Shown here: positions 47,784 through 62,125 of the stretch, piece by piece
Position numbering within the stretch: position 1 is the first letter of the stretch
How the letters are laid out: every line of letters starts with the position of its first letter
Assembly (NCBI GenBank): GCA_016181175.1
Contig: JACOZV010000004.1
Location: 7,718-71,717, forward strand
Length of the DNA: 64,000 nucleotides
Direction: 5' to 3'
Origin: Candidatus Yanofskybacteria bacterium
GTDB lineage: Bacteria; Patescibacteriota; Minisyncoccia; 2-02-FULL-40-12; IGHO2-01-FULL-4-A
Notes under the pieces: model-generated
What the model was told of the DNA's origin: nothing
The model's database searches: none
Seen by the model: the letters and a program-made list of their open reading frames with translations, nothing else
Translations under genes and position numbers: made by a program

Positions 47784-48023
47784 TTATTCAATATTTGTCT
47801 TTATTCCACAAATCTTGCAGAACTTATGCCAAAAATTAGGATGATCGACAATCAGCTCTTCCAATATAGCAAACGGAATGACAATAACAATAGCGCCCAA
47901 CATAATACGGGGGGTTATTATTTGATCAGTTAAGAAGTATAAAGACAACAAGTTGTCGGCTAGGTTGGATATTAAACCGAAAATTACAAACTCCAAAATT
48001 CTGAATATGGTTTTAGGTTTCAT
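47784..48023 (-). CDS. Hypothetical small membrane protein
   Basis: Two or three helices. Start MKPKTIF avoids overlap with the upstream gene. Confidence 0.4.
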   Translation of the reverse strand: MKPKTIFRILEFVIFGLISNLADNLLSLYFLTDQIITPRIMLGAIVIVIPFAILEELIVDHPNFWHKFCKICGIKTNIE

Positions 48024-48030
48024 GTATTCA

Positions 48031-48411
48031 TTATATCCGCCATTTAAAAATAAGGTAAGAGAGTAGGCCAAGTTGTAAAGTTGGAGTTAGCCCCGTATCT
48101 AATAAGGGTATGATCGGCATTAATGAAGTATATGCCCATCGACCGCTACTGATAGCAAAACGTTCTAGTACAACCGCAACAACAACACCGAATATTAACG
48201 CATACCATTTTCTTTCTCTAAAATATGAAATTCTTATAAATAATACAGCTAAAAGTGTTATAAAAAAAGCATCAAAAAGCGTAGCTCGCAATAAAATGAG
48301 TTGAGTTATCTCTCCTGCCTTATAATGGATATACAGATACGAATACAGATTTTCCCAAACTAAATTCAACAAGAAACTAATTATAAAAATTAGAGATAAT
48401 TTCTTAAACAT
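48031..48411 (-). CDS. Hypothetical four-helix membrane protein
   Basis: Start MFKKLSLIF. No recognised motif. Confidence 0.45.
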   Translation of the reverse strand: MFKKLSLIFIISFLLNLVWENLYSYLYIHYKAGEITQLILLRATLFDAFFITLLAVLFIRISYFRERKWYALIFGVVVAVVLERFAISSGRWAYTSLMPIIPLLDTGLTPTLQLGLLSYLIFKWRI

Positions 48412-48904
48412 TAGGGCTTTTGATCGAGTTGAGGACGGAGGCAGGTCGCAACACACCAGAAACTACTTGATAGGTGGGTAAACGCCTTTATGGCCTATGA
48501 CTGAAAGAAGGCTTTTGCTGATCCAGAAGTGGCTATTAAACAGATATGTCAGCTACTGGCCACAATATAGTGAATTAAAAAACTACTTCCCTGGCCTATC
48601 AAAATCTGGCCCTCGGGGTTCTTTGTCTACAAAAGGTTAGAACTGGATAAAAACCGCTTAAACAAAGCACAAAAGGAAGCTCTCGCTTCCCTTCATTCAC
48701 ACTGGCTCGCTTGGCTAACCGCTTTCCGAACAACGGACTGGTCTAAAATCTTCCCATATCCATTGGTTTCTTTGAGGCAGATGCGCTACTTACTCACTTT
48801 AGTGGACTAACTTTTGCCCTCTTTTTTGCCTTTTTGAATAATTTTCGAACCGGACGACTCCAGCCCAAAAAATCGGGTACTTTACTGCTTACAATACTTT
48901 GCAT

Positions 48905-49075
48905 TTAGGATCCTTGTTTGCGCGCCGGTTCTTCCTTGATTCGACGAAGTGTTTCGTCGAAGAGAATGGCGAAGGCGTCATCAAGATTACGCTGACCTTC
49001 TTCAGTTAAAGGAAGCTGGTGATAGCGCAGCTCAACAAGTAACGGTTTCTGTTTTCTTTTTTTCTTGGTGGTCAT
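48905..49075 (-). CDS. 56-aa basic/acidic ORF ending the defence operon (below the ORF-track cutoff)
   Basis: Hand translation gives MTTKKKRKQKPLLVELRYHQLPLTEEGQRNLDDAFAILFDETLRRIKEEPARKQGS. Its start is 5 nt after the upstream stop. Confidence 0.35.
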   Translation of the reverse strand: MTTKKKRKQKPLLVELRYHQLPLTEEGQRNLDDAFAILFDETLRRIKEEPARKQGS

Positions 49076-49080
49076 GACAA

Positions 49081-50559
49081 TTACATTACCAACTTCCTAT
49101 ATGCCCCATCTAAAAAAGTGTCTATTGCTCTGATCTGATTATCTCTCCTTAAATCGAGGAGTGTTTTTATATCATCGTCGTCAAGCGCGATGATAAAACC
49201 TCGATCGTCGGACGCTGTATCTTTGCATCGTTGAATGAAGCGCGTCTTGTTGGTAAAACTCCTGCATATTAACAATCCGAATCTGCCACGATTAGTAGAA
49301 AACCTACCGGACAACTGGTCGAGTTCGGGGTTAGCCGGATCAGATGAGTAATTCTTACACTCAACAAAAATATAGCTTGATGGTACTCGCTTGTTCTGCG
49401 GTAATTCCCAAAAGAACCCTTTTTTTGCAGCGTTTTCGAAAACGATATCAACTTTCTTTCTCCTTTCATGTAGCGGCTGCTCCTTTTTCGGATTTATAAG
49501 AAACGGATAAAAAATGGCAGTGAGCGCCCCTTGAATATGGTTATGGAAATTGTCTGCGTCAGCATCACCAGTATCTATACGATCCAGTTCTGCTTTTAGA
49601 GCATCGAAGTCAAAAGCTGGGCGTGCACCTATAGCATCAATGTCTTCGTTACTAATTTCTTCGAGATTGTACTGTTTACTGTCGCGATATCGTCGCAAAA
49701 CTTCCGGATGATCTTTCGAAAAAGTGTAAAGAAATTGCTTCGAATGAGGGTGAAGTTCTTTGAGTGCCTTTTTTGTAGGCGGTCTACGCGTTCCATCTTT
49801 AAGCACCCTCACAAGGGCAGAGTTCGCGCTTAAATGCTCTTCCTGTAAAAAGTTTAGTACGAAATGCTGATAGTATTCCTGATGGCTAAACTCCAAACTA
49901 AAACGCGCAACTGCTTTAGGGACAAGTAAAACATTTCTATCATTACACACCGGAAGATTAACATACTCATTAGTCCATTCATTACGAACCGTATTCCAAA
50001 CAGTGCCGCTTGGTACGTTGTGCATTGTAATACCCCAAAATATACATTCGTTTTGGGTGTACTCGATTAACTTTCCGCGAATAATGTTAGTGGTCATGTC
50101 AGATATCTTGTCATGGCTGATGCCTTCGATAAGAAGTTCGCACTCTTCAAGATCTTTAAGAAACCCAGTTCTTACAGCCGAGCTTTCAGCCAACGCATCA
50201 TATAAATCGTTCGCCTGATCTCCTCCTACACCCCTACCTCTCGGGGATCCTCCAACAGACAAACCAAAACGAGTTTGATTCGGCTCTCGCAATCCTGAAA
50301 GCATGTATTTTGCGTCATCCTTTCTATCGGCTCTGATCAAGTCGATAACTCTTTGAAAAAAATTAACGATCTGATTGTGGCAATCGATTGACCACCTATC
50401 ATTCCGCTTTGAAAGAGCATAAGGATCAATAAACAAAGGAATATCCCCATTATTTATGGGAACATCGACAAAATCGAGTTCGTACTGGCTTTTACCAAGT
50501 CGGAAGTTCTCCGAAAAGGTTTCGTATCTTCTTGGTTGTTGTGTTCTTTGTCTTGGCAT
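49081..50559 (-). CDS. 492-aa protein: unknown N-terminal ~330 aa plus a C-terminal PD-(D/E)xK (Mrr/Shedu-like) nuclease core
   Basis: The C-terminal ...KVDIVFEN...SYIFVECKNYSSDPANPELDQLSGRF...GLLICRS fits the D...(D/E)xK restriction-endonuclease-fold motif order. I do not recognise the N-terminal region. Confidence 0.55.
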   Translation of the reverse strand: MPRQRTQQPRRYETFSENFRLGKSQYELDFVDVPINNGDIPLFIDPYALSKRNDRWSIDCHNQIVNFFQRVIDLIRADRKDDAKYMLSGLREPNQTRFGLSVGGSPRGRGVGGDQANDLYDALAESSAVRTGFLKDLEECELLIEGISHDKISDMTTNIIRGKLIEYTQNECIFWGITMHNVPSGTVWNTVRNEWTNEYVNLPVCNDRNVLLVPKAVARFSLEFSHQEYYQHFVLNFLQEEHLSANSALVRVLKDGTRRPPTKKALKELHPHSKQFLYTFSKDHPEVLRRYRDSKQYNLEEISNEDIDAIGARPAFDFDALKAELDRIDTGDADADNFHNHIQGALTAIFYPFLINPKKEQPLHERRKKVDIVFENAAKKGFFWELPQNKRVPSSYIFVECKNYSSDPANPELDQLSGRFSTNRGRFGLLICRSFTNKTRFIQRCKDTASDDRGFIIALDDDDIKTLLDLRRDNQIRAIDTFLDGAYRKLVM

Positions 50560-50567
50560 GGTTCATG

Positions 50568-52250
50568 CTATTTGATCAATTTCTTATTCCAGCCCTTTGA
50601 TTTGATGAACTTGAGCGTGCCTTCGATTTCGGCTTTCCTAAACTTGTTTGGTTTCCATGCTTGAATCTTGTCATTGATCGTTGTGAGATCGTCGCTTTTT
50701 GCATCCTGCACAACCTTGCAGACGGTTGCCAAGCACTCAATTTGAGCGCTGGTGGAGTTTTTAATTGCCGGCATAAGATCATTAAGGACGGACTCCATGT
50801 TGCTCAAGATTTTTGAGTTGTATTTGAAGAGTTTACCGGAGTTAGCGCCTAAACCATAGACGCCGTTTTTTTGCTGAAAGAAGCCATTGCGAGGACTTGC
50901 GCCGGCGGTGATGGCTTTCTTAATCTGTAGATCGTAGGGGCCGAAGTTCTGCGAGGTAAAGCTGAAGCCGAGCGGTACCCTGTAAACTTCCTGCGCGAGA
51001 TATAAGAGCTTCGCCACAACCATTTCACCACGTTCAAAACGTTGCAACACCGCTCCGATGGCTTGCCACACCGGAAAGACACTTGCTTTGACAGGAACAG
51101 CAGCCACGCCCTCTTTTACCAACTCACCAGCAAGCGCTTTTGACAAGGCGGAATCAAAAAGTTCCTTCAGCTTCTCTTTTTGAACGAGAAGTCCTTTTTT
51201 ATACTCTTTAATAGCACTAAACCTCTCGGCAATGGCATGCTGGTCTGTCGTTGGTGGTACCATGATTTTTATTTTTTTAAGTGCGGTAGAGTTTACTGCG
51301 GCTTGATTTACCCACGGCGTGCATAGATAACGAAATCTATCGGTTGAATATAAGTATTGAAGATATATAGAGAAGTAGCGCGGATCTAATACTTTTTCGT
51401 TTGTGCGAATCCGAGTGATGTGATTTGAAAAGACATACTTGTAATCCTTGTCTATGTAAACGCTTTTTCCAACTAAACTAATACTGTTTGTATTATTAAA
51501 TAGGACATCACCACTCTTCAGGAAATAAGTTTCCGCATGTGGGTAATCCTGTGGAATATACTTGATGCTATCAAAGTTCAAACTACCGTCATCGCCGATA
51601 TTATTAGGTCTGATTTGTCCAATACCCTTCCCAACCGGACGGAAGGCAAAACCATTCGTAACATCGACTACTAACGCACCGATCTTTTCTTCCTTCCAGC
51701 TTTTTGACGATGATCCAAAAATCTTATTCAAAAGCGACTGAAAAAGCTGATCTGTTTTTTCAATAAGCGCATCATTGAGTTTTTGGGCTTCGCGGATAGA
51801 ATCAACACGTTCTGCAATTGCTTGTTGGGTATTTAAAGACGGCATTGGTACTCGTAAATTTTCAAGGAAGGTTCTATTCAAATGTGGTACTGCCGCTCCT
51901 TGCGCTGCTGATCTAATTTTTTGCTGATTAAATTGCAAAAGGTAAGCAAGGTATCGACTTTCCAGTGTTTCGTTATGAACCACTTTAGCAATCGTGGAAC
52001 CAACAAATCCTCTTAAACCGATACCAACGGTGCCGGCATAAGCACCATCCCAAACCAATAAAACATCGTCATTGTCGCATCGAACTCCGTTATTTTCTGA
52101 AGTGTAAAGCGTATATTGACCACTTCTTAAATTTTCAATGCCAATATAAGGCAAGGTGTCCTTTGCGGCTTCTGCTGCGGAAATCATCATTTTACCTTTC
52201 GCAAAAGAAATAAGTTCGCCTAATTTTTTTGTTTGATAATTACTTTGCAT
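50568..52250 (-). CDS. hsdS: Type I restriction-modification specificity subunit HsdS with a ~180-aa C-terminal Panacea/DUF4065 (SocA-like) extension
   Basis: Two target-recognition-domain halves are separated by conserved helices (..AIAERVDSIREAQKLNDALIEKTDQLFQSLLNKIF.. and ..AIAERFSAIKEYKKGLLVQKEKLKELFDSALSKAL). They are followed by ...VVAKLLYLAQEVYRVPLGFSFTSQNFGPYD..., which resembles the KLxKLLYxAQ...GPV core of DUF4065. Confidence 0.7.
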   Translation of the reverse strand: MQSNYQTKKLGELISFAKGKMMISAAEAAKDTLPYIGIENLRSGQYTLYTSENNGVRCDNDDVLLVWDGAYAGTVGIGLRGFVGSTIAKVVHNETLESRYLAYLLQFNQQKIRSAAQGAAVPHLNRTFLENLRVPMPSLNTQQAIAERVDSIREAQKLNDALIEKTDQLFQSLLNKIFGSSSKSWKEEKIGALVVDVTNGFAFRPVGKGIGQIRPNNIGDDGSLNFDSIKYIPQDYPHAETYFLKSGDVLFNNTNSISLVGKSVYIDKDYKYVFSNHITRIRTNEKVLDPRYFSIYLQYLYSTDRFRYLCTPWVNQAAVNSTALKKIKIMVPPTTDQHAIAERFSAIKEYKKGLLVQKEKLKELFDSALSKALAGELVKEGVAAVPVKASVFPVWQAIGAVLQRFERGEMVVAKLLYLAQEVYRVPLGFSFTSQNFGPYDLQIKKAITAGASPRNGFFQQKNGVYGLGANSGKLFKYNSKILSNMESVLNDLMPAIKNSTSAQIECLATVCKVVQDAKSDDLTTINDKIQAWKPNKFRKAEIEGTLKFIKSKGWNKKLIK

Positions 52251-52869
52251 AAGAATGCGCAGAGTATTGAATTCTACCTACGCGGTTTAATAAGCGCGTA
52301 TCCCGAACTTTTAAGTTTTCACCATCTTTATCGAATGGCCTTATTTCTGCTTTCCAAATAGATCTACAAAAAACAGTGTTCTGATCATTCATATATGTAA
52401 TTTCTAAACATACTGGTATCGCAAATTCAGCCATTTCATACCATTCTCTAAAATTTTTTATGAGTTGAAGTTTGATTCTAAATGACTCATCCTCTGTGGT
52501 CTGATAGAGGGGCACCTTATGATATCTTTCTTCTGCGATGGGCATACCGGTCGCTTTGGGTTGGGAGATATTAAAAGCCGATCCGCGACCAGAATTGAAA
52601 CAGTCAAACTCTATGGAAAAAACTATTTCAAAATGATTCGCATCAGCACGGATTATGCTTCCGGCATCCATCACACCATATCCATGCTCTACTTCACTAT
52701 GTCTAACCCCAACCCATATTCTTAATGGACGCAAAATTAAGCTGGGTACTGTACTTAATGCAGAATTCCAATCTGCTTTTCTGATAGCTTTTATCGAAAT
52801 CCACAGTGAAACAACTGCGGTTATCCCGACTAAAATATCTGCCGTTTTAGAAATTATTTCAAAATTCAT
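52240..52869 (-). CDS. 209-aa single-pass membrane protein inserted between hsdM and hsdS
   Basis: N-terminal TM helix (ADILVGITAVVSLWISIKAI) and a beta-rich soluble domain. It starts 6 nt after the hsdM stop and overlaps the hsdS start by 11 nt. No recognised family. Confidence 0.55.
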   Translation of the reverse strand: MNFEIISKTADILVGITAVVSLWISIKAIRKADWNSALSTVPSLILRPLRIWVGVRHSEVEHGYGVMDAGSIIRADANHFEIVFSIEFDCFNSGRGSAFNISQPKATGMPIAEERYHKVPLYQTTEDESFRIKLQLIKNFREWYEMAEFAIPVCLEITYMNDQNTVFCRSIWKAEIRPFDKDGENLKVRDTRLLNRVGRIQYSAHSYAK

Positions 52870-52875
52870 AATCTT

Positions 52876-54405
52876 TTATCCCAGTTTATCTGTCATCTCT
52901 TCTTGTAATTTTGTTAGATCTTTATTGATTTTCTCAATTTCTTTCAAAATAATTTTTGGCTCGCGGTGTTTTATCTCTTCTCCGATAGCATATGGGTTAT
53001 AAGTGTTTGCAGAAAGTATGTAATCATTTTCGATGATTTCTTTAACTGGCGTAAACCATGCAAGCTGTTTTTCAACTGCGCGGTTTTTATGCCAGAGTTC
53101 CAACAGCTTCGGAATATCATTTCTATATTGGCTGCCGAATTTTTTGGATGCTGAAAGCGATGAACCATCACCTTGCATATCAAAGAACCATACCTTTGCA
53201 GATTCATCGAGTTTCGGCACCGCCTTTTTTTTGAACACCAAGAAGGACGTTTTTACGCCGGCATACGGCTGAAACACGCCTGCCGGCATGGAAACAACCG
53301 CCTGTAAGTCCGTATTTTCAAGTAGAAAACGGCGGATCTCTTTATCATCGCGGTTGGTACCAAAAAATGAACCTTCGGGAAGGATTATGCCGGCTCTGCC
53401 ATTGGGCTTGAGCGAGTTTATAACATGACCCAAAAATAGAACCTGTGTTTTGGTTGATTTGACCGGCAAGGTTGGTTTTATACGTTCCCGATCAACCTTT
53501 CCAGAGAATGGTGGATTTGTAAGGACAATATCGAATGTGCGCAGATCATCCTCATCTTCAGATCCAGCAACCGTGTCTTTGCGCTTAATGTTCGCACTCT
53601 CTATGCCATGTAATATCAAATTCATAAGTGCTAACCGCACCATCTCCGGATCAACATCAGAACCCAAAAAGGTTTTTTTGGTTAGAAATTCCCACTGTTT
53701 TTTATCGAGCTTATCTCCAAACCCCCTCTTGTGTCCATTTTCCTCTTCAATGCTTTTGGGATCGCTATTTCTTAATCGGATCCAATCATAGCCGGAGATG
53801 AGGAAGCCACCAGAACCACACGCAGGATCATAAACAGTTTCGCCAATTTTTGGATTCACCATTTCAACTATGACGCGAACGATATGACGCGGAGTGAGAA
53901 ATTGTCCAAGTTCGCCGGCTGATTCAATACTTGCAAGCAGCTCTTCATAAAGATCGCCCTTAACATCTGTGTCTAATCCTGTTAAATTGATCGTGTCAAT
54001 AATTTCAATCGTGTTTTTTAATGTAACAGAATGGGGAATTTCGAGCTTCGCATCATAAAAAATTTGCCGTATGTTAGAGTGTCCATTTTGCAATCGCTCC
54101 ACAAAGGGAAATACCTCATCACGAACAATTTTATACAATTCATCGCCAGCTTTTTCTTTCCAGCGCGACCATCGGAATTTTTCGTTTTTGCCCTCGAAAA
54201 TTGATTTATGTTTACGCCCAGTAAGTTCTTCGCCTCTCTCCATAGAAATATCCTGTTCCTCAAGCATTTTCAAAAAAAACAAAAAGCTAATCTGCTGGAT
54301 CCTTCTCACAGGGTCTCGTAAACCTGCACCCCAAAGATAATCGTTCAGGCGATCTAATTTTTGGCGAAACTCTATTCTTAATTGTTGTATTTTTTGTTCG
54401 GGCAT
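52876..54405 (-). CDS. hsdM: Type I restriction-modification N6-adenine DNA methyltransferase subunit
   Basis: HsdM N-terminal domain, AdoMet motif VYDPACGSGGFL and catalytic LTNPPF. Confidence 0.9.
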   Translation of the reverse strand: MPEQKIQQLRIEFRQKLDRLNDYLWGAGLRDPVRRIQQISFLFFLKMLEEQDISMERGEELTGRKHKSIFEGKNEKFRWSRWKEKAGDELYKIVRDEVFPFVERLQNGHSNIRQIFYDAKLEIPHSVTLKNTIEIIDTINLTGLDTDVKGDLYEELLASIESAGELGQFLTPRHIVRVIVEMVNPKIGETVYDPACGSGGFLISGYDWIRLRNSDPKSIEEENGHKRGFGDKLDKKQWEFLTKKTFLGSDVDPEMVRLALMNLILHGIESANIKRKDTVAGSEDEDDLRTFDIVLTNPPFSGKVDRERIKPTLPVKSTKTQVLFLGHVINSLKPNGRAGIILPEGSFFGTNRDDKEIRRFLLENTDLQAVVSMPAGVFQPYAGVKTSFLVFKKKAVPKLDESAKVWFFDMQGDGSSLSASKKFGSQYRNDIPKLLELWHKNRAVEKQLAWFTPVKEIIENDYILSANTYNPYAIGEEIKHREPKIILKEIEKINKDLTKLQEEMTDKLG

Positions 54406-54407
54406 AG

Positions 54408-56663
54408 TTATCGTGTACAGATCCTTTGGTTAAGCTCCGAGAGAGCGGATTGTAAAACACCTTCCTCAAACACTCGCAACGCATAATTAAGACCACCGAT
54501 TTGCCGGAAGATCGGCTCGTTGAATATGGAAATATCAACCGGCTCTTTGCGAACGATACATTGCGACTTTACCAAACGCAGGATTTTTATTTGATCGGAT
54601 GCAAAGTTTTTCTCGATTAGCCATGATTCAAAAAGCTGATTTACACGCTGCTCATGTAGTTGCTCTTCTGTAGGGAACTCCTTTGTTTTGAGTGCTGCTT
54701 GTATGAAGTCATTGAGCGTGCCTACCGGATAGCGATATGCTTCTCGCAAGTTTGCTTCGTTAAAATAGAACTCCGGAGAATTAAGTTTTTCGGAAAGGAA
54801 GGCGGTTTCGTCATTTGAAAGATCTTCGCCTTGTTTAACTTTTGAAATAAGCGGCTCGGTTTTAGCCATCTCTTGAACTTGCTGCTCCCATGCCACCTGA
54901 TAATCATCGGCATCAATTCTTTCGCCTTCTGCTCCAACTTCGATATGCGCACGCTGCATAACCACGTCCATGTTTTCGGGTGCTGTTTCCGGCACTTGAA
55001 CAAAAAGTCGCTTCACCACTTCTTCCTCTTCCTGCGTTAAATCTTCAGCTTCGGTTCCCCACGGAATACCAGCTTTAATTTTTGCATAGGCAGAATACGG
55101 ATCAAATCCTTCGTCATTGAAGTAACGAGTAACGCCAGCAAAGTCATAAATACGAAAAGATGTTTTGCTGATTTTTTGATATAATCGGCTGCCACGTCCT
55201 CGCATCTGTTGGTAAAGGATCGGGGAACGTGTAGGACGCGCCATGATCAAGTTTTCTACCATTGGGACATCGATGCCGGTATCCATCATACCCACCGAAA
55301 CCGCTACCATCGGCATTTCTTGGTGCTTAAAACGTCTTATGGCTCCACGAGGATCTTCGGTATCGGAAGTAATAACTTCAGCGTATCTTCCCTTATATTC
55401 CGGATATGTCTGATTGAGATAATACGCCAATTGCGCAGCGTGTTTTTTCGTAACAGCATAAAGAATGGTTTTGCGATGGTGTTTTGGTTCATGCTTTTCT
55501 TCTTCCTCTCTGAATGTTTTTGCCAATTGCTCGTTTCTTGCCGGCACATTGATTTTTCTCTCCAAATCTTCGGCGTTGTAATCTTCACCCTCAAATTGCA
55601 CACCTTCTAAAGACACTTTGGTGTCGATCTGTAAGATCTCATAACCAGCAAGAAATCCCTCTTTGATGCCTCGTCGAATACTGTATAGAAATGTCGGTTT
55701 ACCCTTTTTTTCACGCTCATCCCAACAACCAAAGAGCTTATAGGTGTTACGATCAATAAACACACTCGGCGTTGCTGTAAGACCTATCCGGATTGCGTCA
55801 AAATGCGATAGGACAGCGTTGTAGATGCCGAAGATGGATCTATGTGCTTCGTCCGAGATAACCACATCAAAATAACCACTTGTAAAATTCGATAGTTGCG
55901 AATAAAGAGTGGGAAGTGTCGAGATGATTATTGAGGATTCGTCTTTTTGCTTGCCTCCGTAAAGAAGCTTTGTAGGATAATCTTTCAAAATTTCATCAAA
56001 AACTTCCTTTGTTTGTATGCCTAAATCAATGCGATCAACAAGAAATAAAACACGCCGGATGAGATTCGCTTCAAACAGCCGTTTGAGATAAAGAGCTATG
56101 GTATCTGTCTTGCCAGTGCCGGTTGCCATAGCGATGAGCATTTTGCGCAAACCGCCCTCAATGGTTTTGTCCATGATCTGCATGGCCTCCTTTTGATATG
56201 GGCGTGGTGTGCGTAATTCGCCACCTTTAAAATAATTGTCGGGTACAGGAATGGCGGTTATCGGCTTTTGATCTATTCGTAGGGTTTGGATTTTTTCTAA
56301 ATCGCGTTGAGAAAAGAAGGTAATTACCTTTTGCTCTGGACGATATTTGTAATCCCAAAAATAAATATCCTCTCCATTGGAAAGGAAAATGAAATCGATA
56401 CCCAGCTCTTCTGCGTAGGTCAATGCCTGCTGTTTTGCCAATACTGGTTCAGTTGAAAACCGCTTTGCTTCGATAAGCCCGATGGCTCTGCCGCGTCTAT
56501 CCCTCAAGAAATAATCGGCACGTCCATCCTTCACCGGATCTTCGGTTGAAACTTGATTTTTATCCTCAATATCCCAGCCAGCTTCGCGGAGTTTGCGATC
56601 GATGACAATGCGAGCGTCCGTTTCTCTTGAGTTGTTATTGTTATTTGTCATATTCATTTTCAT
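54408..56663 (-). CDS. hsdR: Type I restriction enzyme R subunit (nuclease plus SF2 helicase)
   Basis: N-terminal PD-(D/E)xK (ADYFL...IGLIEAKR), Walker A MATGTGKT, DEAH (ISDEAHRS) and later helicase motifs. 2-nt gap to hsdM. Confidence 0.85.
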   Translation of the reverse strand: MKMNMTNNNNNSRETDARIVIDRKLREAGWDIEDKNQVSTEDPVKDGRADYFLRDRRGRAIGLIEAKRFSTEPVLAKQQALTYAEELGIDFIFLSNGEDIYFWDYKYRPEQKVITFFSQRDLEKIQTLRIDQKPITAIPVPDNYFKGGELRTPRPYQKEAMQIMDKTIEGGLRKMLIAMATGTGKTDTIALYLKRLFEANLIRRVLFLVDRIDLGIQTKEVFDEILKDYPTKLLYGGKQKDESSIIISTLPTLYSQLSNFTSGYFDVVISDEAHRSIFGIYNAVLSHFDAIRIGLTATPSVFIDRNTYKLFGCWDEREKKGKPTFLYSIRRGIKEGFLAGYEILQIDTKVSLEGVQFEGEDYNAEDLERKINVPARNEQLAKTFREEEEKHEPKHHRKTILYAVTKKHAAQLAYYLNQTYPEYKGRYAEVITSDTEDPRGAIRRFKHQEMPMVAVSVGMMDTGIDVPMVENLIMARPTRSPILYQQMRGRGSRLYQKISKTSFRIYDFAGVTRYFNDEGFDPYSAYAKIKAGIPWGTEAEDLTQEEEEVVKRLFVQVPETAPENMDVVMQRAHIEVGAEGERIDADDYQVAWEQQVQEMAKTEPLISKVKQGEDLSNDETAFLSEKLNSPEFYFNEANLREAYRYPVGTLNDFIQAALKTKEFPTEEQLHEQRVNQLFESWLIEKNFASDQIKILRLVKSQCIVRKEPVDISIFNEPIFRQIGGLNYALRVFEEGVLQSALSELNQRICTR

Positions 56664-56676
56664 TCTTGAGCTTGAT

Positions 56677-58476
56677 CTATAAATTCTCGTAATACCCCCT
56701 GATCTTTTTCGCCATGAGTTTGCGGCGTTCCTTCAAAAACCTTTCGTAATCCCCAAGCTCCATATTCTGAAAGCCATCCGGTATGCAATTCTGTTTTAGG
56801 TTCTCGGCGAGATCTTTTTTATCGGTTATGCCGCCATACTTGAGCTTGCCTCCTTCGGTTTGTTTCATTACTTCAGCCATGTACTCTTTGGGAGATTTTT
56901 TGCCGACTTTGATATTTATTTCAGATTGAGCATAAGTAAAGTTGCCAATCTGGTTGTAATCGCCCCTACTTAAGCCGCCTGCTTTCTTCAGGTATTCCTT
57001 TGGAAAGAGATGATGGATGTCGCCGCGATGACTGATCATATTACCAACGGTAATGTCGGTTGAAAGAAAGCCCCTGTCGTTATTTTTAACCTGTGCCGCA
57101 AAAAAAAGATTGAGAAATGGATTGCTGATGCTCGCCTTATCGAGTTCCTGAATAAGCTGCGCGTTCCAAAAAGCATCGGAGAGTTGCGCTTCTTCGATTG
57201 ATTTCAAAATCTCGCCAGCATCGCCATTGGAAATCTGCTTAATATCCGAATCAAATTGGCTTTCCGGTGATCCGGAATAACGTCCGGTGAGGATAGACAT
57301 CACAAACCAGCGTTGGACATACTTTTCGATCAAGCTTGGATCGACACTCTTATCGCGCAGCTTGAGATATAAAATATAGGCAAAGTTAAGAGCGTTTTGC
57401 GAATTGATAAGGTCGTTGCTTATAAAGCCGCAGGATTTGATGATCATTACAAACCGCTTGAAGTTTGTTTCATTTACAAAATCCAGTACCGCATCACGGA
57501 GTTTTTGGAAAGACGCATCCATTATGTCTTGCTCAAAACTGCGTGTTTCAAAGTTACGCCCCGAAAGCAGTCCGACAAGATCCGCCATCTTGCCTCGTTC
57601 AAATTGTTTGGTGAAACTCACACGCAACACATCGGAATAATCCGGATCGTAGAGGTCGTCATTTTCATCTTTAAGCCATGCAAGTTTTGAAAGGTAAACA
57701 GTTTTGTTAAACTCTGCATCATTTTCAGTTATGTGTTTGTAAAACTGCGGCTCGCGCGCAAGATGGCAAAAATAGTCGACACACTTTCTTAAATTAACGC
57801 CGAAATTATCCTCCTTGTCATAAGAAGCTATCTTCGACATGGCAAAGTCAGCTTGGCTTAATACAACACCTTTGGAATTGATACGGATAAAAATCTCGGT
57901 AACCGTTTCAATATCTAAACCGGCATCAAGTTCAATAAAACCAACCTGCTTGCTTTTGATCTGTAATAACTTCTCAATGTTCTTTTCAATGAGTTCACGA
58001 TTTACGTCAAGATTTTTGTCGCAATAGTCAGTTACATCTTTGAATAAGCCGCCGTCCTTACTCATAAGTTTTGAGATGTCAGCTATCCACGCCTTGTCCT
58101 TTTTTATTGCCGGTGTGAGTGTGGCAAATTCTTCTATGATGGGGTGAAATGCAATATAGATCCGTTCCTCCTTATAATCTTTATTGATAATGTTTTGACC
58201 GAGAATTGCCGCACGGAGAGCGGTAATGCGTTGCTGTCCGTCAATCAAGACCTTTTTGCCGTTGGAAATGGAGCCATCTTTAAGACGAACATCGGGGTTT
58301 TTCCATGCAATGATATAGCCGATCGGATAGCCACGATAAAGCGAATCCATCAGATCGCGCACCTTTGTCGAATCCCAAACAAACGGACGCTGGATTTCCG
58401 GTATAGCGATTTCCTTTTCCTGAACCCAATTCAGGATATTGCTCACAAAGTATTGATTGACTGTGTATTTTTGCAT
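56677..58476 (-). CDS. GmrSD/BrxU-like type IV restriction enzyme (DUF262 plus DUF1524)
   Basis: IPEIQRPFVW and LIDGQQRITAL (DUF262/ParB-like NTPase). The C-terminal His-Me finger context is GDIHHLFPKEYL (DUF1524). Start taken at MQKYTVNQ. Confidence 0.8.
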   Translation of the reverse strand: MQKYTVNQYFVSNILNWVQEKEIAIPEIQRPFVWDSTKVRDLMDSLYRGYPIGYIIAWKNPDVRLKDGSISNGKKVLIDGQQRITALRAAILGQNIINKDYKEERIYIAFHPIIEEFATLTPAIKKDKAWIADISKLMSKDGGLFKDVTDYCDKNLDVNRELIEKNIEKLLQIKSKQVGFIELDAGLDIETVTEIFIRINSKGVVLSQADFAMSKIASYDKEDNFGVNLRKCVDYFCHLAREPQFYKHITENDAEFNKTVYLSKLAWLKDENDDLYDPDYSDVLRVSFTKQFERGKMADLVGLLSGRNFETRSFEQDIMDASFQKLRDAVLDFVNETNFKRFVMIIKSCGFISNDLINSQNALNFAYILYLKLRDKSVDPSLIEKYVQRWFVMSILTGRYSGSPESQFDSDIKQISNGDAGEILKSIEEAQLSDAFWNAQLIQELDKASISNPFLNLFFAAQVKNNDRGFLSTDITVGNMISHRGDIHHLFPKEYLKKAGGLSRGDYNQIGNFTYAQSEINIKVGKKSPKEYMAEVMKQTEGGKLKYGGITDKKDLAENLKQNCIPDGFQNMELGDYERFLKERRKLMAKKIRGYYENL

Positions 58477-58477
58477 A

Positions 58478-58666
58478 TTACTTTTTTGGTTTCTTGATAT
58501 TCGATCGAGAACGAATAAACGCCTCGAGATCGCTCTCGCTGATCCGCCAATAGCCGACTTTGGTCGCCTTGAGCCGCCCACTCGAAATATAGCGATACAA
58601 GGATCGCTCGCTAACTCGCAAATACTTTGCCGCTTCACGTAATGTAAGAAATTTCTTTTTGGTCAT
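58478..58666 (-). CDS. Excisionase-family (MerR-like) helix-turn-helix DNA-binding protein
   Basis: FLTLREAAKYLRVSERSLYRYISSGRLKATKVGYWRISESDLEAFI is the classic HTH_17/Xis pattern. Its stop abuts the GmrSD-like start. Confidence 0.75.
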   Translation of the reverse strand: MTKKKFLTLREAAKYLRVSERSLYRYISSGRLKATKVGYWRISESDLEAFIRSRSNIKKPKK

Positions 58667-58681
58667 AGGTCAATTGATTTC

Positions 58682-58717
58682 ATTCTATCGCAAAAAAGCC
58701 ACATGGTCAAATGTGGC
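58682..58717 (-). promoter_or_regulatory. Sigma70-type promoter of the defence operon with an overlapping palindromic operator
   Basis: Minus strand reads TTGACC (58710-58705), a 17-nt spacer, then TAGAAT (58687-58682). The palindrome GCCACAT-N6-ATGTGGC (58698-58717) covers the -35. Confidence 0.5.
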
Positions 58718-58747
58718 AAAGTCGGTTATCTTCCTAAAAGGCAGGTG

Positions 58748-59098: not shown

Positions 59099-59371
59099 AG
59101 TTTTGTGAGCGGCGAGTTTTGAAACACAAAACCCACCACTGGGAGGGCTTGCGCCCCTATGGAAGTTTCCCTCCATAACGTTAGGCACGCCCCAAATGAT
59201 GGGTTTTCTATGCCTAACGATTTGCGACCATGCCGCCAGCCGAAGCCGATGGTTTAGATCATTTGATATCCAATTGTGTTTTTAAGTATATCAGAAAAAC
59301 ATGAGATCCTGCAACGGATGAAAAATACTGCTGGTCAAATGTGGCAAGGTCTGCTAAAATGAGTTTTAAGA

Positions 59372-59869
59372 ATGACGATGAATATGAAAATGAATAGTAA
59401 AAAAACCGAACCATTTCGCGTTGTTATAAATACAAGTACCGACCCCAATGTGCCATTGATTGAGCTTGTACGTGGTAACCGGAAAGCCAAACTTCCACCT
59501 ATTGCGATCAAAAACGTACGTCTTGATACCGATCGCTATTTGCTTGTCGTAAATGACGGCGAGCGCGTTGTTGCCTTTAAGTCAAAAAGGCACAAGAAGG
59601 GACTGGATAAAGAAACGAAGCTATTTAAAGTGCTGGTATTGCTTTTTGATTTTCGCCTCGAAAAAAAGGGTGAAAAAATACTCCACAGCAAAAACCTTAA
59701 CCCCGACTACACTTCTCTAAAAAATATCGCCGGAAATAGCGGAAGCCCAACACAAGAAGCAGCATATAGAAACATAAAGCGGTTAAATGGCTACTTTGAG
59801 GAAAATGGCTTGTCTATATGGATTGAAAAACACGGCAATGATTGCCGCCTCGTAGTTAAGAAGAGTTAA
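59372..59869 (+). CDS. Hypothetical DNA-binding protein (C-terminal OmpR/PhoB-type winged-helix-like)
   Basis: LFKVLVLLFDF...GEKILHSKNL...AAYRNIKRLNGYFEENGLSIWIEKHGNDCRLVV resembles a trans_reg_C pattern. The call is tentative. Confidence 0.4.
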   Translation: MTMNMKMNSKKTEPFRVVINTSTDPNVPLIELVRGNRKAKLPPIAIKNVRLDTDRYLLVVNDGERVVAFKSKRHKKGLDKETKLFKVLVLLFDFRLEKKGEKILHSKNLNPDYTSLKNIAGNSGSPTQEAAYRNIKRLNGYFEENGLSIWIEKHGNDCRLVVKKS

Positions 59870-59946
59870 TACGCGGACATTATTTTTACAGAAGCGCTCG
59901 ATACTTTAAGGATAAAAGCGCTCAAAAAGTAGAAAAAATCCCTCAA

Positions 59947-59975
59947 GGGACATTTTGAAAATGTCCCCGATTTTT
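59947..59975 (+). terminator. Rho-independent terminator (perfect 10-bp-arm palindrome)
   Basis: gggacatttt-g-aaaatgtccc followed by cgattttt. Confidence 0.55.
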
Positions 59976-60052
59976 CTCAATAGTGAATGATATGGTCAAA
60001 GCAAGATACGCTTTGGCTTTTTTGTTTTCCCAAGCCAGCGCGGTCGGATGAT

Positions 60053-60298
60053 ATGAAGATACTAAATGAAAAAAACTTTTATCAAACTTCTGACTTTTGC
60101 CTCGCAACGGTTATTTCACTTTCTTTTCCGATAGAAGCAGTAGATCGGCAGAACACGCGAAAAGTTCAATTTATATTTCGTCGCAATAACGTCCTCGATA
60201 AGCTGATCGAGGATTTTTGGCGTGGTGAGATCCGAATTGATCCACAGCTTTTCTATAACCAATTACGAGTGATGAAAGCTCGGATTTACAACGACTAA
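60053..60298 (+). CDS. DUF5659-like protein
   Basis: MKILNEKNFYQTSDFCLATVISLSFPIEAVDRQNTRKVQFIFRRNN... The family is recalled from memory, and it is common in small mobile elements. Confidence 0.45.
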   Translation: MKILNEKNFYQTSDFCLATVISLSFPIEAVDRQNTRKVQFIFRRNNVLDKLIEDFWRGEIRIDPQLFYNQLRVMKARIYND

Positions 60299-60299
60299 C

Positions 60300-60554
60300 A
60301 TGCTTAAACCATCGGCAATTGAAGAATTAAGGTCGATATTGCTCGAAGAGTTTGGGCGTGATGTTGATATTAAAACAGCCAGAACGATCGGCGAGGATTT
60401 AGTCGGCTTCTACGACACTCTCGCAAAGATCGCGCATAAGGATAAAACGATAAGCAAAAATCTTTCCCCTTGCTCGGGTTCCATAGTGGACTATCCACTT
60501 GCAATGAGTAGTTCATTGAAAAAGAGGGTGGAACCCGAACAAAGAGAAAGATAA
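60300..60554 (+). CDS. Hypothetical 84-aa protein
   Basis: ORF 1 nt after the upstream stop. No motif recognised. Confidence 0.4.
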   Translation: MLKPSAIEELRSILLEEFGRDVDIKTARTIGEDLVGFYDTLAKIAHKDKTISKNLSPCSGSIVDYPLAMSSSLKKRVEPEQRER

Positions 60555-60565
60555 AAAAAGAAATT

Positions 60566-62125
60566 ATGAAAAACATTTTTAGTGGTAACCACAAAAAAGG
60601 AAAGGTGTCCGACAAACTGAAGGGCGCGGAATTGGTTTTAGATGTGATCGAAAAAAGCGACTTATGGCTCTTTCACGATCAATTAAACGAGGCATACGCC
60701 GTTATAGCTGGTGATGGAGCATCAATAATGAAAATCGACTCGCAAAAGTTCCACAACTGGCTTTTTAATCATATCTATGACGAAACCGGAAAGATCAGCA
60801 ACACAGCCGCGTGCGAGGCAGCCATAAAGGTTCTGAAACATCAAGCAGAAACTGGGAATCTATTTGAGCTTGGAGTTAGGGTAAAACTGCGTGAGGGCGG
60901 TATTTGGTACGATCTCGGCGGTCAAAACTTTGTGAGTATCGCAGAAGATGGATGGTTGGTAACTGATCCTCCGCAACCAATCCTCTTTAAGAGGTTCGGG
61001 CATCAAAAAGAGCAGGTGCGACCGGAACGCGAGGGTAGCATGAATGAGTTTATGGAGCTTATTAACCTACAAGACAAAAAAGAATCTTTGCTCCTCATGG
61101 TTTACTTGGTTGCATCGTTTATTCCTAACTTTCCTCATCCTGTATTGATTGTGCATGGTTCGCAGGGGGCTGCTAAAAGTACCGCATGTAAATTGATTAA
61201 AGAATTAGTGGATCCATCTGCATTAGAAACTTCGACTATAAACGACGATAAAGACATAAAAGAATTGGTACAAGCCGCATCGCATCATTGGCTGTTAGTT
61301 CTCGATAATATCTCCTATATCTCCGAGAAAATCTCGGACACGATCTCACGAATATGTACCGGAGGCGGATTATCTAAAAGAATACATTATAGCAATGACG
61401 ACGACTTCATTTACAACTTTATGCACATAGTCGCCATTAACGGAATCCATCAGATCGTAAGCAAGCCCGATCTCCTCGATCGATCAATCTTGTTGGCGCT
61501 TGAACGCATCCCTGAAGATAAAAGGATAACGGAGGAGCAACTTTGGGGTCGTTTCAATGCAATGAAAGGAAGAGTTCTCGGCGCGGTTTTCGATGCCGTA
61601 TCCGGAGCATTGCGTGAATATCCGAATGTGCAGTTAGCAACATTGCCACGAATGGCGGACTTTGCACGCTGGGGATGCGCTATTGCGAGGACGCTCGGCT
61701 ACACCGACGAGGACTTTATGAATGTATACAAAACGAATATCGGAAGGCAGAACCAAGAGGCGCTTTCAGCAAGCGCCACAGCAGCAGTCATCATCAAGCT
61801 CATGGAAGATAATGATGTTTTCGAAGATACACCATCTGCTCTTTTGCGACTAATGGATCCGATAGCCGACGATCTCAAGGTAAAAGAAGCGAAGGATTAT
61901 CCACGACAGGCAAACTGGCTTTGGAGGCGCATTGAAGCGGTTATACCGAACCTTGCTGACGCCGGCATAAAGGTCGAGCAAACGAAAGATACTGAACGGA
62001 AGATAAAAATATCAAAGATATTGCGCGGTGATGACAGCACTGAAATTATGCCGTCTTCCGAAAAACCAGCAGAAGAACCTGCAAAAGACAGCATCGACAG
62101 CATAGACGGCACTTTCCCCCTGTAG
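60566..62125 (+). CDS. P-loop NTPase, SF3-helicase/VirE-like replication protein of mobile elements
   Basis: Walker A HGSQGAAKST and Walker B-like HHWLLVLDNIS. Its size and position are typical of plasmid or integrative-element replication helicases. Confidence 0.5.
   Translation: MKNIFSGNHKKGKVSDKLKGAELVLDVIEKSDLWLFHDQLNEAYAVIAGDGASIMKIDSQKFHNWLFNHIYDETGKISNTAACEAAIKVLKHQAETGNLFELGVRVKLREGGIWYDLGGQNFVSIAEDGWLVTDPPQPILFKRFGHQKEQVRPEREGSMNEFMELINLQDKKESLLLMVYLVASFIPNFPHPVLIVHGSQGAAKSTACKLIKELVDPSALETSTINDDKDIKELVQAASHHWLLVLDNISYISEKISDTISRICTGGGLSKRIHYSNDDDFIYNFMHIVAINGIHQIVSKPDLLDRSILLALERIPEDKRITEEQLWGRFNAMKGRVLGAVFDAVSGALREYPNVQLATLPRMADFARWGCAIARTLGYTDEDFMNVYKTNIGRQNQEALSASATAAVIIKLMEDNDVFEDTPSALLRLMDPIADDLKVKEAKDYPRQANWLWRRIEAVIPNLADAGIKVEQTKDTERKIKISKILRGDDSTEIMPSSEKPAEEPAKDSIDSIDGTFPL

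What the first reader, a model, noticed from the sequence alone, without database searches (positions are those of the whole stretch)
49081..50559. 492-aa protein with an unknown N-terminal region and a C-terminal PD-(D/E)xK nuclease core, appended to the RM operon
The last ~130 aa show the order D (VDIVFEN) ... ExK (FVECK), with downstream conserved positions typical of the Mrr/restriction-endonuclease fold, which is also the fold of the Shedu DUF4263 nucleases. The first ~330 aa match nothing I recognise. The start is 8 nt after the hsdS stop, so the protein is co-expressed with the RM enzyme and is a second candidate effector or sensor-nuclease.
Basis: partly seen in the sequence, partly recalled or inferred. 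Interest (0 to 1): 0.65.

Follow-up and report, generated by a model that had tools for sequence, protein, structure and literature searches.

The report
Candidate phage-defence nuclease behind RM operon
The gene encodes a real two-part protein, a FokI-like DNA-cutting domain joined to a strongly conserved domain of unknown fold, and it belongs to a widespread family (Pfam DUF8370, PADLOC candidate PDC-M36A) that is already catalogued as a likely anti-phage defence but has never been tested.

Summary
A 492-aa ORF lies on the minus strand at 49081-50559, 8 nt after the hsdS stop. It is the last large gene of an array: BrxU/GmrSD-like, HsdR, HsdM, a 209-aa ORF, HsdS, then this gene.

The family is already catalogued as Pfam PF28123 (DUF8370) and PADLOC PDC-M36A, an untested "guilt-by-embedding" candidate. 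It has about 4,100 clusters at 50% identity and no conserved gene partner. Neighbours are typical of defence islands and mobile elements. Five of 81 loci sit at the 3' end of a Type I RM operon.

The same N-domain also occurs with a helical C-terminal module, with a CHAT protease, or alone on small plasmids.

Best reading: an autonomous sensor-nuclease that RM operons pick up occasionally, not an RM subunit. The trigger is unknown. This is a new member of a catalogued but uncharacterised kind.

The parts
49081..50559 (-). Complete CDS of the 492-aa DUF8370 / PDC-M36A protein, stop codon included
   Evidence: ORF list and translation. PADLOC PDC-M36A hits at E 2e-48 and 3.6e-20. The identical protein carries the precomputed annotation PF28123:DUF8370 on metagenome contigs.
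49672..50559 (-). N-terminal conserved domain of unknown fold (residues 1-~296). Positions kept in all architectural classes: Q25, F30, D39, D45-P46, E92, G99, G108, S126, D150, S153, D154, T168, W188, W195, P214, K274. Includes a Gly-rich loop, RGRGVG, at residues 107-112.
49570..49671 (-). Variable, acidic linker (residues 297-330)
   Evidence: Highest column entropy in the protein (3.19 bits against ~2.26 for the two domains) and pI 4.05. pLDDT dips in the model.
49084..49569 (-). C-terminal PD-(D/E)xK nuclease domain of the FokI/BspD6I type (residues 331-492). Catalytic D371 at nt 49447-49449, E400 at 49360-49362, K402 at 49354-49356.
50568..52250 (-). hsdS (560 aa), immediately upstream. 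Two target-recognition domains plus a ~180-aa C-terminal Panacea/DarG-C-like extension (nt 50571-51095).
   Evidence: Pfam Methylase_S and PADLOC Specificity_I. NCBIfam antitoxin_DarG C-terminal region at E 6e-6. SocA_Panacea at E 0.018 covering the whole profile. tblastn matches to macro-domain proteins at 30% identity.
52240..58638 (-). Rest of the co-oriented array: 209-aa TM ORF (52240-52869), hsdM (52876-54405), hsdR of the EcoEI type (54408-56663), and a BrxU/GmrSD-like gene (56677-58638, with a probable true start at 58476).
   Evidence: Pfam and PADLOC hits. Gene calls on the matching metagenome contig.
58682..58710 (-). Promoter-like site (TTGACC-17-TAGAAT) upstream of the array
   Evidence: Consensus scan, 10 of 12 matches. 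This is a pattern match only.
48905..49075 (-). 56-aa ORF starting 5 nt after the nuclease stop. Whether it is a real gene is uncertain.
   Evidence: ORF list. An 'ILFDE' motif is shared with the ORF downstream of the 72%-identical homologue in L006. The 90%-identical homologue in L095 has a 55-aa ORF in the same position with only weak similarity.
48669..48696 (-). Terminator-like hairpin, a likely end of the transcription unit
   Evidence: Consensus scan: 12-pair stem followed by a T-rich tail. This is a pattern match only.

Best explanation
The gene encodes an autonomous, single-chain candidate anti-phage nuclease of the DUF8370 / PDC-M36A family. Here it has been captured at the 3' end of a Type I RM operon and is probably co-transcribed with it.

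Shown:
- A two-domain protein whose C-terminal ~160 aa is an intact PD-(D/E)xK nuclease, most similar to the non-specific, dimerisation-dependent cleavage domain of FokI/BspD6I.
- An N-terminal ~300-aa module that is equally conserved and has no detectable structural relative.
- This module keeps an invariant polar constellation (D39, D45, E92, D150, S153, D154, K274 and a GxG loop) whatever is attached to it.

Inferred:
- The N-domain is the constant sensing or regulatory module and the C-terminus is an exchangeable effector (nuclease, helical module with a hydrophobic tail, CHAT protease, or none).
- In the resting state the N-domain holds the nuclease inactive. The single confident inter-domain arrangement (pTM 0.89) is compatible with this.
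- A conserved infection-associated cue binds the acidic, Gly-rich pocket. A Mg2+-bound nucleotide-like ligand or a nucleic-acid feature is the likeliest type of cue.
- Binding drives dimerisation or oligomerisation. The nuclease domains then cut DNA without sequence specificity, destroying phage DNA and probably host DNA as well (abortive infection).

Placing the gene behind hsdS gives a second, mechanistically independent layer of defence expressed together with the RM enzyme and the BrxU-like Type IV enzyme.
For: Nuclease fold and catalytic triad.

N-domain novelty and conservation.

Family identity: PADLOC PDC-M36A and PF28123 DUF8370. PDC-M36 was defined by embedding in BREX, DISARM or Type I RM systems and has not been tested experimentally.

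Family size and spread: 4,132 clusters at 50% identity with E<=1e-3, and 323 GTDB species hits across many phyla.

Genomic context:
- No neighbour is conserved in 80 loci.
- Neighbours include integrases, HerA, Schlafen-type helicases, methyltransferases, GmrSD, TIR, OLD/AAA_15, Shedu, AbiE, AbiTii and Bub-type (ubiquitin-like) genes.
- The gene recurs at the 3' end of Type I RM operons in L010, L012, L036 and L039 as well as in the window.

Effector exchange on a constant N-domain:
- 5 of 117 full-length top representatives, plus 32 more proteins, carry a helical module instead of the nuclease.
- P0254 carries a CHAT domain.
- P0159 adds a PNP_UDP_1 domain.
- N-domain-only proteins occur on small plasmids, one followed by a multi-TM ORF.

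Operon structure.
Against: - No member of the family has been tested, so the defence role rests on context alone.
- The trigger and the ligand are unknown.
- The N-domain's invariant carboxylates could mark an enzyme active site rather than a sensor pocket.
- N-domain-only proteins on plasmids as small as 4.5 kb show the module can act without a fused effector.
- Non-nuclease variants are a small minority (about 4% of representatives), and CHAT was seen only once.
- I could not inspect model coordinates, so I have not shown that the invariant residues cluster or that the nuclease site is occluded.
- The PADLOC PDC-M36 definition is a three-gene cassette whose other members I could not identify. 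None is evident here.
- The promoter and terminator calls are consensus matches only.
Confidence: 0.55

Rival explanations
1. Type IV (modification-dependent) or Type IIS-like restriction endonuclease. The N-domain binds DNA that carries a conserved chemical feature, such as a hypermodified base, and the FokI-like domain cuts nearby. This would be direct restriction with no abortive infection.
Confidence: 0.2
2. RM-coupled latent toxin, analogous to PrrC. The nuclease is held inactive by the Panacea/DarG-C-like domain fused to the C-terminus of HsdS and is released when a phage anti-restriction factor disables or dissociates the Type I complex. In this locus it would therefore act as a guard of the RM enzyme.
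For: HsdS carries a ~180-aa extension related to antitoxin domains: DarG C-terminal region at E 6e-6, SocA_Panacea at E 0.018 over the whole profile, and macro-domain proteins at 30% identity. The nuclease gene starts 8 nt after hsdS. Panacea-domain antitoxins neutralise many unrelated toxins encoded next to them (PMC8832971). The PrrC-EcoprrI precedent for an RM-embedded latent nuclease is noted.
Against: All domain hits are below the curated thresholds. HsdS in the other RM-linked loci has normal length (L036 418 aa, L039 445 aa, L010 416 aa). About 94% of family members have no Type I RM neighbour, so this cannot be the general mechanism. No interaction was tested. The extension could instead serve the embedded 209-aa ORF or something else.
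Confidence: 0.1
3. Not a defence gene. It would instead be a mobile-element maintenance or DNA-processing nuclease, for example plasmid or island addiction, or recombination or replication-intermediate processing, that merely travels with defence islands.
For: Integrases are the commonest neighbour family: 6 of 142 neighbouring proteins scanned. N-domain-only relatives sit on very small plasmids. Members occur in a PHROG of unknown function and on a few predicted proviruses.
Against: No recombinase, replication protein or other mobility gene is a conserved partner. Contexts are dominated by known defence genes. Exchange of effectors (nuclease, CHAT, helical module) is typical of immune sensors. 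No match was found in 50,697 phage genomes.
Confidence: 0.1

Closest known systems
PADLOC phage-defence candidate PDC-M36 (gene A) / Pfam PF28123 DUF8370
   Same: Direct sequence membership: PDLC04597 at E 2e-48 and PDLC04598 at E 3.6e-20, and a PF28123 annotation on the identical protein. The Type I RM context is the one through which PDC candidates were found.
   Different: PDC-M36 is defined as a three-gene cassette, FAM_01399>>FAM_00303>>FAM_00303. No such partners are evident here or in the 80 loci examined. The family has no assigned function or mechanism.
FokI / N.BspD6I-R.BspD6I Type IIS cleavage domains
   Different: The N-terminal region is unrelated to the FokI or BspD6I recognition domains. 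There is no dedicated methyltransferase. Sequence similarity is undetectable.
PrrC anticodon nuclease embedded in the EcoprrI Type I RM locus
   Same: An extra latent nuclease gene carried within or next to a Type I RM operon and co-expressed with it.
   Different: PrrC is an ABC-ATPase plus an RNA (anticodon) nuclease and is found almost only in RM loci. This protein has neither domain, and only about 6% of its relatives are RM-linked.
Shedu (SduA, DUF4263)
   Same: A single-protein defence with a variable or unknown N-terminal region and a C-terminal PD-(D/E)xK nuclease.
MspJI/AspBHI modification-dependent restriction enzymes
   Different: No SRA-like N-domain. Effector-swapped relatives exist.

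Membership tests
PD-(D/E)xK nuclease superfamily (restriction-endonuclease-like fold) | An alpha-beta-beta-beta-alpha-beta core fold | tested here: met
PD-(D/E)xK nuclease superfamily (restriction-endonuclease-like fold) | A catalytic D ... (D/E)xK motif on consecutive strands, conserved in the family | tested here: met
   D371, E400 and K402 are invariant in 43 close homologues and kept in 108, 111 and 108 of 113 distant representatives.
PD-(D/E)xK nuclease superfamily (restriction-endonuclease-like fold) | Metal-dependent phosphodiester cleavage | not testable with these tools
   Needs a biochemical assay.
FokI-type Type IIS restriction endonuclease | A cleavage domain structurally like that of FokI | tested here: met
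FokI-type Type IIS restriction endonuclease | An N-terminal sequence-specific recognition domain (helix-turn-helix subdomains D1-D3) | tested here: not met
FokI-type Type IIS restriction endonuclease | A cognate methyltransferase as an obligate partner | tested here: not met
   No neighbour is conserved in 80 loci. Methyltransferase families occur in only a few of the 142 neighbouring proteins scanned.
Mrr_cat (PF04471) | A match to the family HMM above Pfam's gathering score | tested here: not met
Shedu SduA (DUF4263 / SduA_C PF14082) | A match to the SduA_C or PADLOC Shedu models, or close structural similarity | tested here: not met
Pfam DUF8370 (PF28123) / PADLOC PDC-M36A | A significant match to the family models over the full length | tested here: met
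   PADLOC hits at E 2e-48 (residues 16-240) and 3.6e-20 (residues 269-480). The identical protein and all 120 top homologues carry the PF28123 annotation.
Pfam DUF8370 (PF28123) / PADLOC PDC-M36A | The multi-gene PDC-M36 cassette (FAM_01399>>FAM_00303>>FAM_00303) | tested here: inconclusive
No PDC-M36 partner was seen in the window or among 142 neighbouring proteins.
PrrC-type RM-embedded anticodon nuclease | An ABC-ATPase N-domain, a C-terminal anticodon nuclease, and near-exclusive Type I RM embedding | tested here: not met
   No ATPase or PrrC model hit. Only 5 of 81 loci are RM-linked.
MspJI/AspBHI Type IV modification-dependent REases | An SRA-like N-terminal domain that flips out the modified base | tested here: not met
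   The N-domain has no SRA-like or other significant PDB match.

The most novel reading that the evidence does not exclude
The DUF8370 N-domain is a previously unrecognised fold that acts as a universal sensor or switch. It would bind a conserved infection-associated ligand in an invariant pocket of carboxylates and a Gly-rich loop, and it would drive several interchangeable effectors: a FokI-like nuclease, a CHAT protease, a helical module with a hydrophobic tail, or a separately encoded membrane protein. In this locus the HsdS-fused Panacea/DarG-C-like domain would additionally hold it in check. The nuclease would then fire when a phage disables the Type I RM complex, making a new PrrC-like 'guard' circuit built from unrelated parts.
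Probability: 0.12. Interest if true: 0.8.

Novelty: new member of a known kind. Interest (0 to 1): 0.5.

Why it matters
The family is large and spans many phyla. It has about 4,100 clusters at 50% identity and is abundant in Patescibacteria, where few defence systems have been characterised. It is already flagged by PADLOC, yet nobody has assigned it a mechanism.

This analysis adds three things to the catalogue entry:
- The effector is a FokI-type cleavage domain.
- The N-terminal 300 aa form a confidently predicted fold with no solved relative and an invariant acidic, Gly-rich constellation.
- That module is reused with other effectors, which points to a new sensor domain.

If this is confirmed, it would add a new sensor class to bacterial immunity. 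It could also supply a compact, regulatable FokI-like nuclease, and it would be a tractable example of how RM operons recruit back-up effectors.

Tried and rejected
1. Reading the interval on the plus strand gives only stop codons. The gene is on the minus strand.
2. Sequence searches against the PDB with the single protein and with a 43-sequence profile found nothing.
4. I looked for a conserved partner gene by all-vs-all BLAST clustering of ORFs in 80 loci, and by Pfam and PADLOC scans of 142 neighbouring proteins. None was found.
5. I tested whether the ~200-280-aa genes downstream in many loci are a hidden conserved partner. They are unrelated to each other.
6. I tested whether the helical C-terminal module is a promiscuous effector found on other sensors. 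A profile search found only 12 proteins, and the two whose genomic context was looked up are split DUF8370 genes. The only outside link is a weak match to PDC-M14B.
7. I searched for relatives of the HsdS C-terminal extension in metagenome contigs and found none.
8. The 209-aa embedded ORF compared with the TM protein next to the L004 homologue showed no similarity.
9. Rfam on 48000-51000 and tRNA and direct-repeat scans for island borders turned up nothing relevant to this gene.
10. Literature searches for PDC-M36, PF28123, DUF8370 and FokI-like defence systems found no experimental characterisation.

Full report
**Observation**

The interval 49081-50559 holds a 492-aa ATG-initiated ORF on the minus strand. 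On the plus strand it is full of stop codons.

It is the sixth gene of a tightly packed, co-oriented array:
- a BrxU/GmrSD-like gene at 56677-58638 (PADLOC HEC-05 E 7e-32; GmrSD_N);
- hsdR at 54408-56663 (HSDR_N, ResIII, Helicase_C, EcoEI_R_C);
- hsdM at 52876-54405;
- a 209-aa ORF with no hits at 52240-52869;
- hsdS at 50568-52250;
- the target gene.

Gaps along the array are 2-13 nt or overlaps. The target ATG lies exactly 8 nt after the hsdS stop.

A consensus scan finds a promoter-like site on this strand at 58710-58682 and none just upstream of the target. It also finds a terminator-like hairpin at 48696-48669. Co-transcription is therefore plausible but inferred.

VDIVFEN is residues 370-376 and FVECK is residues 398-402.

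**The C-terminal domain is a nuclease**

- An AlphaFold2 model built on 43 homologues is confident (pLDDT 89.7, pTM 0.89). It places D371 at the start of strand 372-376 and E400/K402 at the end of strand 396-402, within an alpha-beta-beta-beta-alpha-beta core.
- It then gives LlaBIII 10.0, AspBHI 9.6, HindIII 9.5, EcoT38I 9.1, AF1548 8.9 and MspJI 8.6.
- D371, E400 and K402 are invariant in close homologues. They are kept in 108, 111 and 108 of 113 representatives that are only 31-52% identical.
- By sequence, Pfam Mrr_cat reaches only E 0.033, below its threshold. No Shedu model hits.

The nearest relatives are Type IIS cleavage domains, not Mrr or Shedu.

**The N-terminal domain has no known relative**

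- Residues 1-~296 have no hit in the local Pfam-A copy (even at E<=10), in NCBIfam, or in PDB sequence searches.
- It is as conserved as the nuclease domain (column entropy 2.27 against 2.25 bits). An acidic, variable linker at 297-330 separates the two.
- The domain is not basic (median pI 6.2).
- A set of polar and glycine positions is essentially invariant in every architectural class: Q25, F30, D39, D45-P46, E92, G99, G108, S126, D150, S153, D154, T168, W188, W195, P214 and K274. G108 lies in an RGRGVG loop.
- Four carboxylates plus a Gly-rich loop suggest a metal- or phosphate-binding pocket.

**Family**

- The protein matches both PADLOC PDC-M36A models (E 2e-48 and 3.6e-20).
- The identical protein and all listed homologues carry the precomputed annotation PF28123 = DUF8370.
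- PDC systems are "phage defence candidates". [quoted passage not shown] PDC-M36 is listed there as the cassette FAM_01399>>FAM_00303>>FAM_00303.
- I found no paper mentioning PDC-M36, PF28123 or DUF8370.
- A profile search of 1.84 billion representative proteins gives 4,132 clusters at E<=1e-3 and 971 at E<=1e-30.
- A pattern-limited scan of 185,579 species genomes confirms 323 loci across Patescibacteria, Acidobacteriota, Proteobacteria, Firmicutes, Bacteroidota, Chloroflexota, Planctomycetota and others.
- The family is nearly absent from viruses. There is no match in 50,697 phage genomes and only 5 loci in IMG/VR. One PHROG of unknown function does match over the full length.

**Genomic context**

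- ORFs were called in 80 non-redundant loci and clustered all-against-all. No neighbour family is present in more than 7 loci or holds a fixed position.
- Pfam and PADLOC scans of the 142 nearest large neighbours show integrases, HerA, Schlafen-type helicases, methyltransferases, GmrSD, HsdS, OLD/AAA_15, TIR and HNH.
- Individual loci show Shedu, OLD, GmrSD, MmeI-type enzymes, HNH with a C5 methyltransferase, AbiE, AbiTii and Bub-type (ubiquitin-like) genes.
- Four further loci from unrelated taxa place the gene last, or next to last, after co-oriented hsdR, hsdM and hsdS genes, as in the window: L010, L012, L036 and L039.
- The RM link is therefore recurrent but applies to a minority, 5 of 81 loci. 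The gene behaves as an autonomous unit.

**Modularity**

- Among the 117 full-length top representatives, 5 replace the nuclease with a ~120-aa module. It has a GDNxGxVGxGxxVxxRDIxVYK motif, a helical segment and a hydrophobic C-terminal helix.
- A targeted search adds 32 more proteins of this type. The module matches PDC-M14B weakly.
- P0254 carries a CHAT protease domain (Pfam E 1.7e-6; PADLOC SAVED_CHAT E 3.7e-6).
- P0159 appends a PNP_UDP_1 domain.
- N-domain-only proteins of 304-318 aa occur on small plasmids. One is on a 4.5-kb Bacillus cereus plasmid. Another, in Acinetobacter schindleri, is followed by a 172-aa multi-TM ORF.
- The variants also sit among defence genes.
- A constant N-module with interchangeable outputs is the usual signature of an immune sensor.

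**Mechanism**

My best reading has a confidence of about 0.55. The N-domain is a sensor or switch that keeps a FokI-like, dimerisation-dependent, non-specific nuclease silent. A conserved infection cue binds the N-domain's pocket. Oligomerisation then licenses DNA cleavage, which probably causes abortive infection.

- Shown: the fold, the catalytic residues, the conservation, the context and the modularity.
- Inferred: the sensing role, the autoinhibition, the trigger and the outcome.

Rivals:
- A Type IV or IIS-like restriction enzyme (0.2). The fold neighbours and the lack of a methyltransferase favour it. The non-nuclease variants and the absence of any DNA-reader fold weigh against it.
- A PrrC-like guard specific to this locus (0.1). 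It rests on the HsdS C-terminal Panacea/DarG-C-like extension. HsdS of normal length in the other RM-linked loci weakens it.
- A non-defence mobile-element function (0.1).

**Novelty**

The gene is a new member of a family that is already catalogued but uncharacterised. The fold is FokI-like rather than Mrr- or Shedu-like. The protein is autonomous rather than an RM subunit. The family is already listed as a defence candidate.

What remains open, and moderately interesting, is the nature of the N-terminal domain and its trigger.

Noticed in passing
window 50571-51095 (-), C-terminal ~180 aa of HsdS: HsdS carries an extra C-terminal domain related to antitoxin domains. The hits are the NCBIfam DarG C-terminal region at E 6e-6, Pfam SocA_Panacea at E 0.018 over the whole profile, and 30% identity to macro-domain (DarG-like) proteins on Cytobacillus plasmids. 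It sits directly upstream of the nuclease gene. HsdS in the other RM-linked loci lacks it.
   Followed up: partly
window 52240-52869 (-): A 209-aa ORF with an N-terminal TM helix is embedded between hsdM and hsdS and overlaps the hsdS start by 11 nt. It has no hit in Pfam, PADLOC, NCBIfam or PHROGs. It is a second 'embedded' candidate in the same RM operon.
   Followed up: partly
window 48905-49075 (-); L006 9487-9732; L095 1605-1772: A 56-aa ORF starts 5 nt after the nuclease stop. The 72%-identical homologue has an 81-aa ORF in the same position with a shared 'ILFDE' motif. The 90%-identical homologue has a 55-aa ORF there with only weak similarity. This could be a small partner or regulator in this clade, or it could be chance.
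   Followed up: partly
window 58693-58728 and 59321-59356: A 36-nt direct repeat (78% identity, core GGTCAAATGTGGCAA) overlaps the promoter-like sites of the defence array (minus strand) and of the divergent 165-aa gene at 59372 (plus strand). It could be a shared operator.
   Followed up: no
window 56677-58638 (-): The first gene of the array is a BrxU/GmrSD-like Type IV enzyme (PADLOC HEC-05 E 7e-32, with DGQQR and HHLFP motifs). The annotated start on matching metagenome contigs gives 599 aa, so the true start is probably at 58476.
   Followed up: partly
window 59372-62125 (+): Divergently transcribed genes beside the array include a 519-aa protein. They look like mobile-element genes by eye and were not scanned. 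This suggests the defence array sits on an integrated element, but no att repeats or flanking tRNA were found.
   Followed up: no
L089 2500-3456; L090 3995-5763: Stand-alone DUF8370 N-domain proteins occur on small plasmids. One is on a 4.5-kb B. cereus plasmid. In A. schindleri p3AsACE the gene is followed by an 82-aa low-complexity ORF and a 172-aa multi-TM ORF, and is preceded divergently by a pair of genes for an HTH regulator and an ImmA/IrrE peptidase.
   Followed up: partly
L100 4266-5612; L101 4426-5579: Small proteins that looked like stand-alone copies of the helical module are the second halves of split (frameshifted or truly split) DUF8370 genes. This may explain why PADLOC lists PDC-M36 as a multi-gene cassette.
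   Followed up: partly
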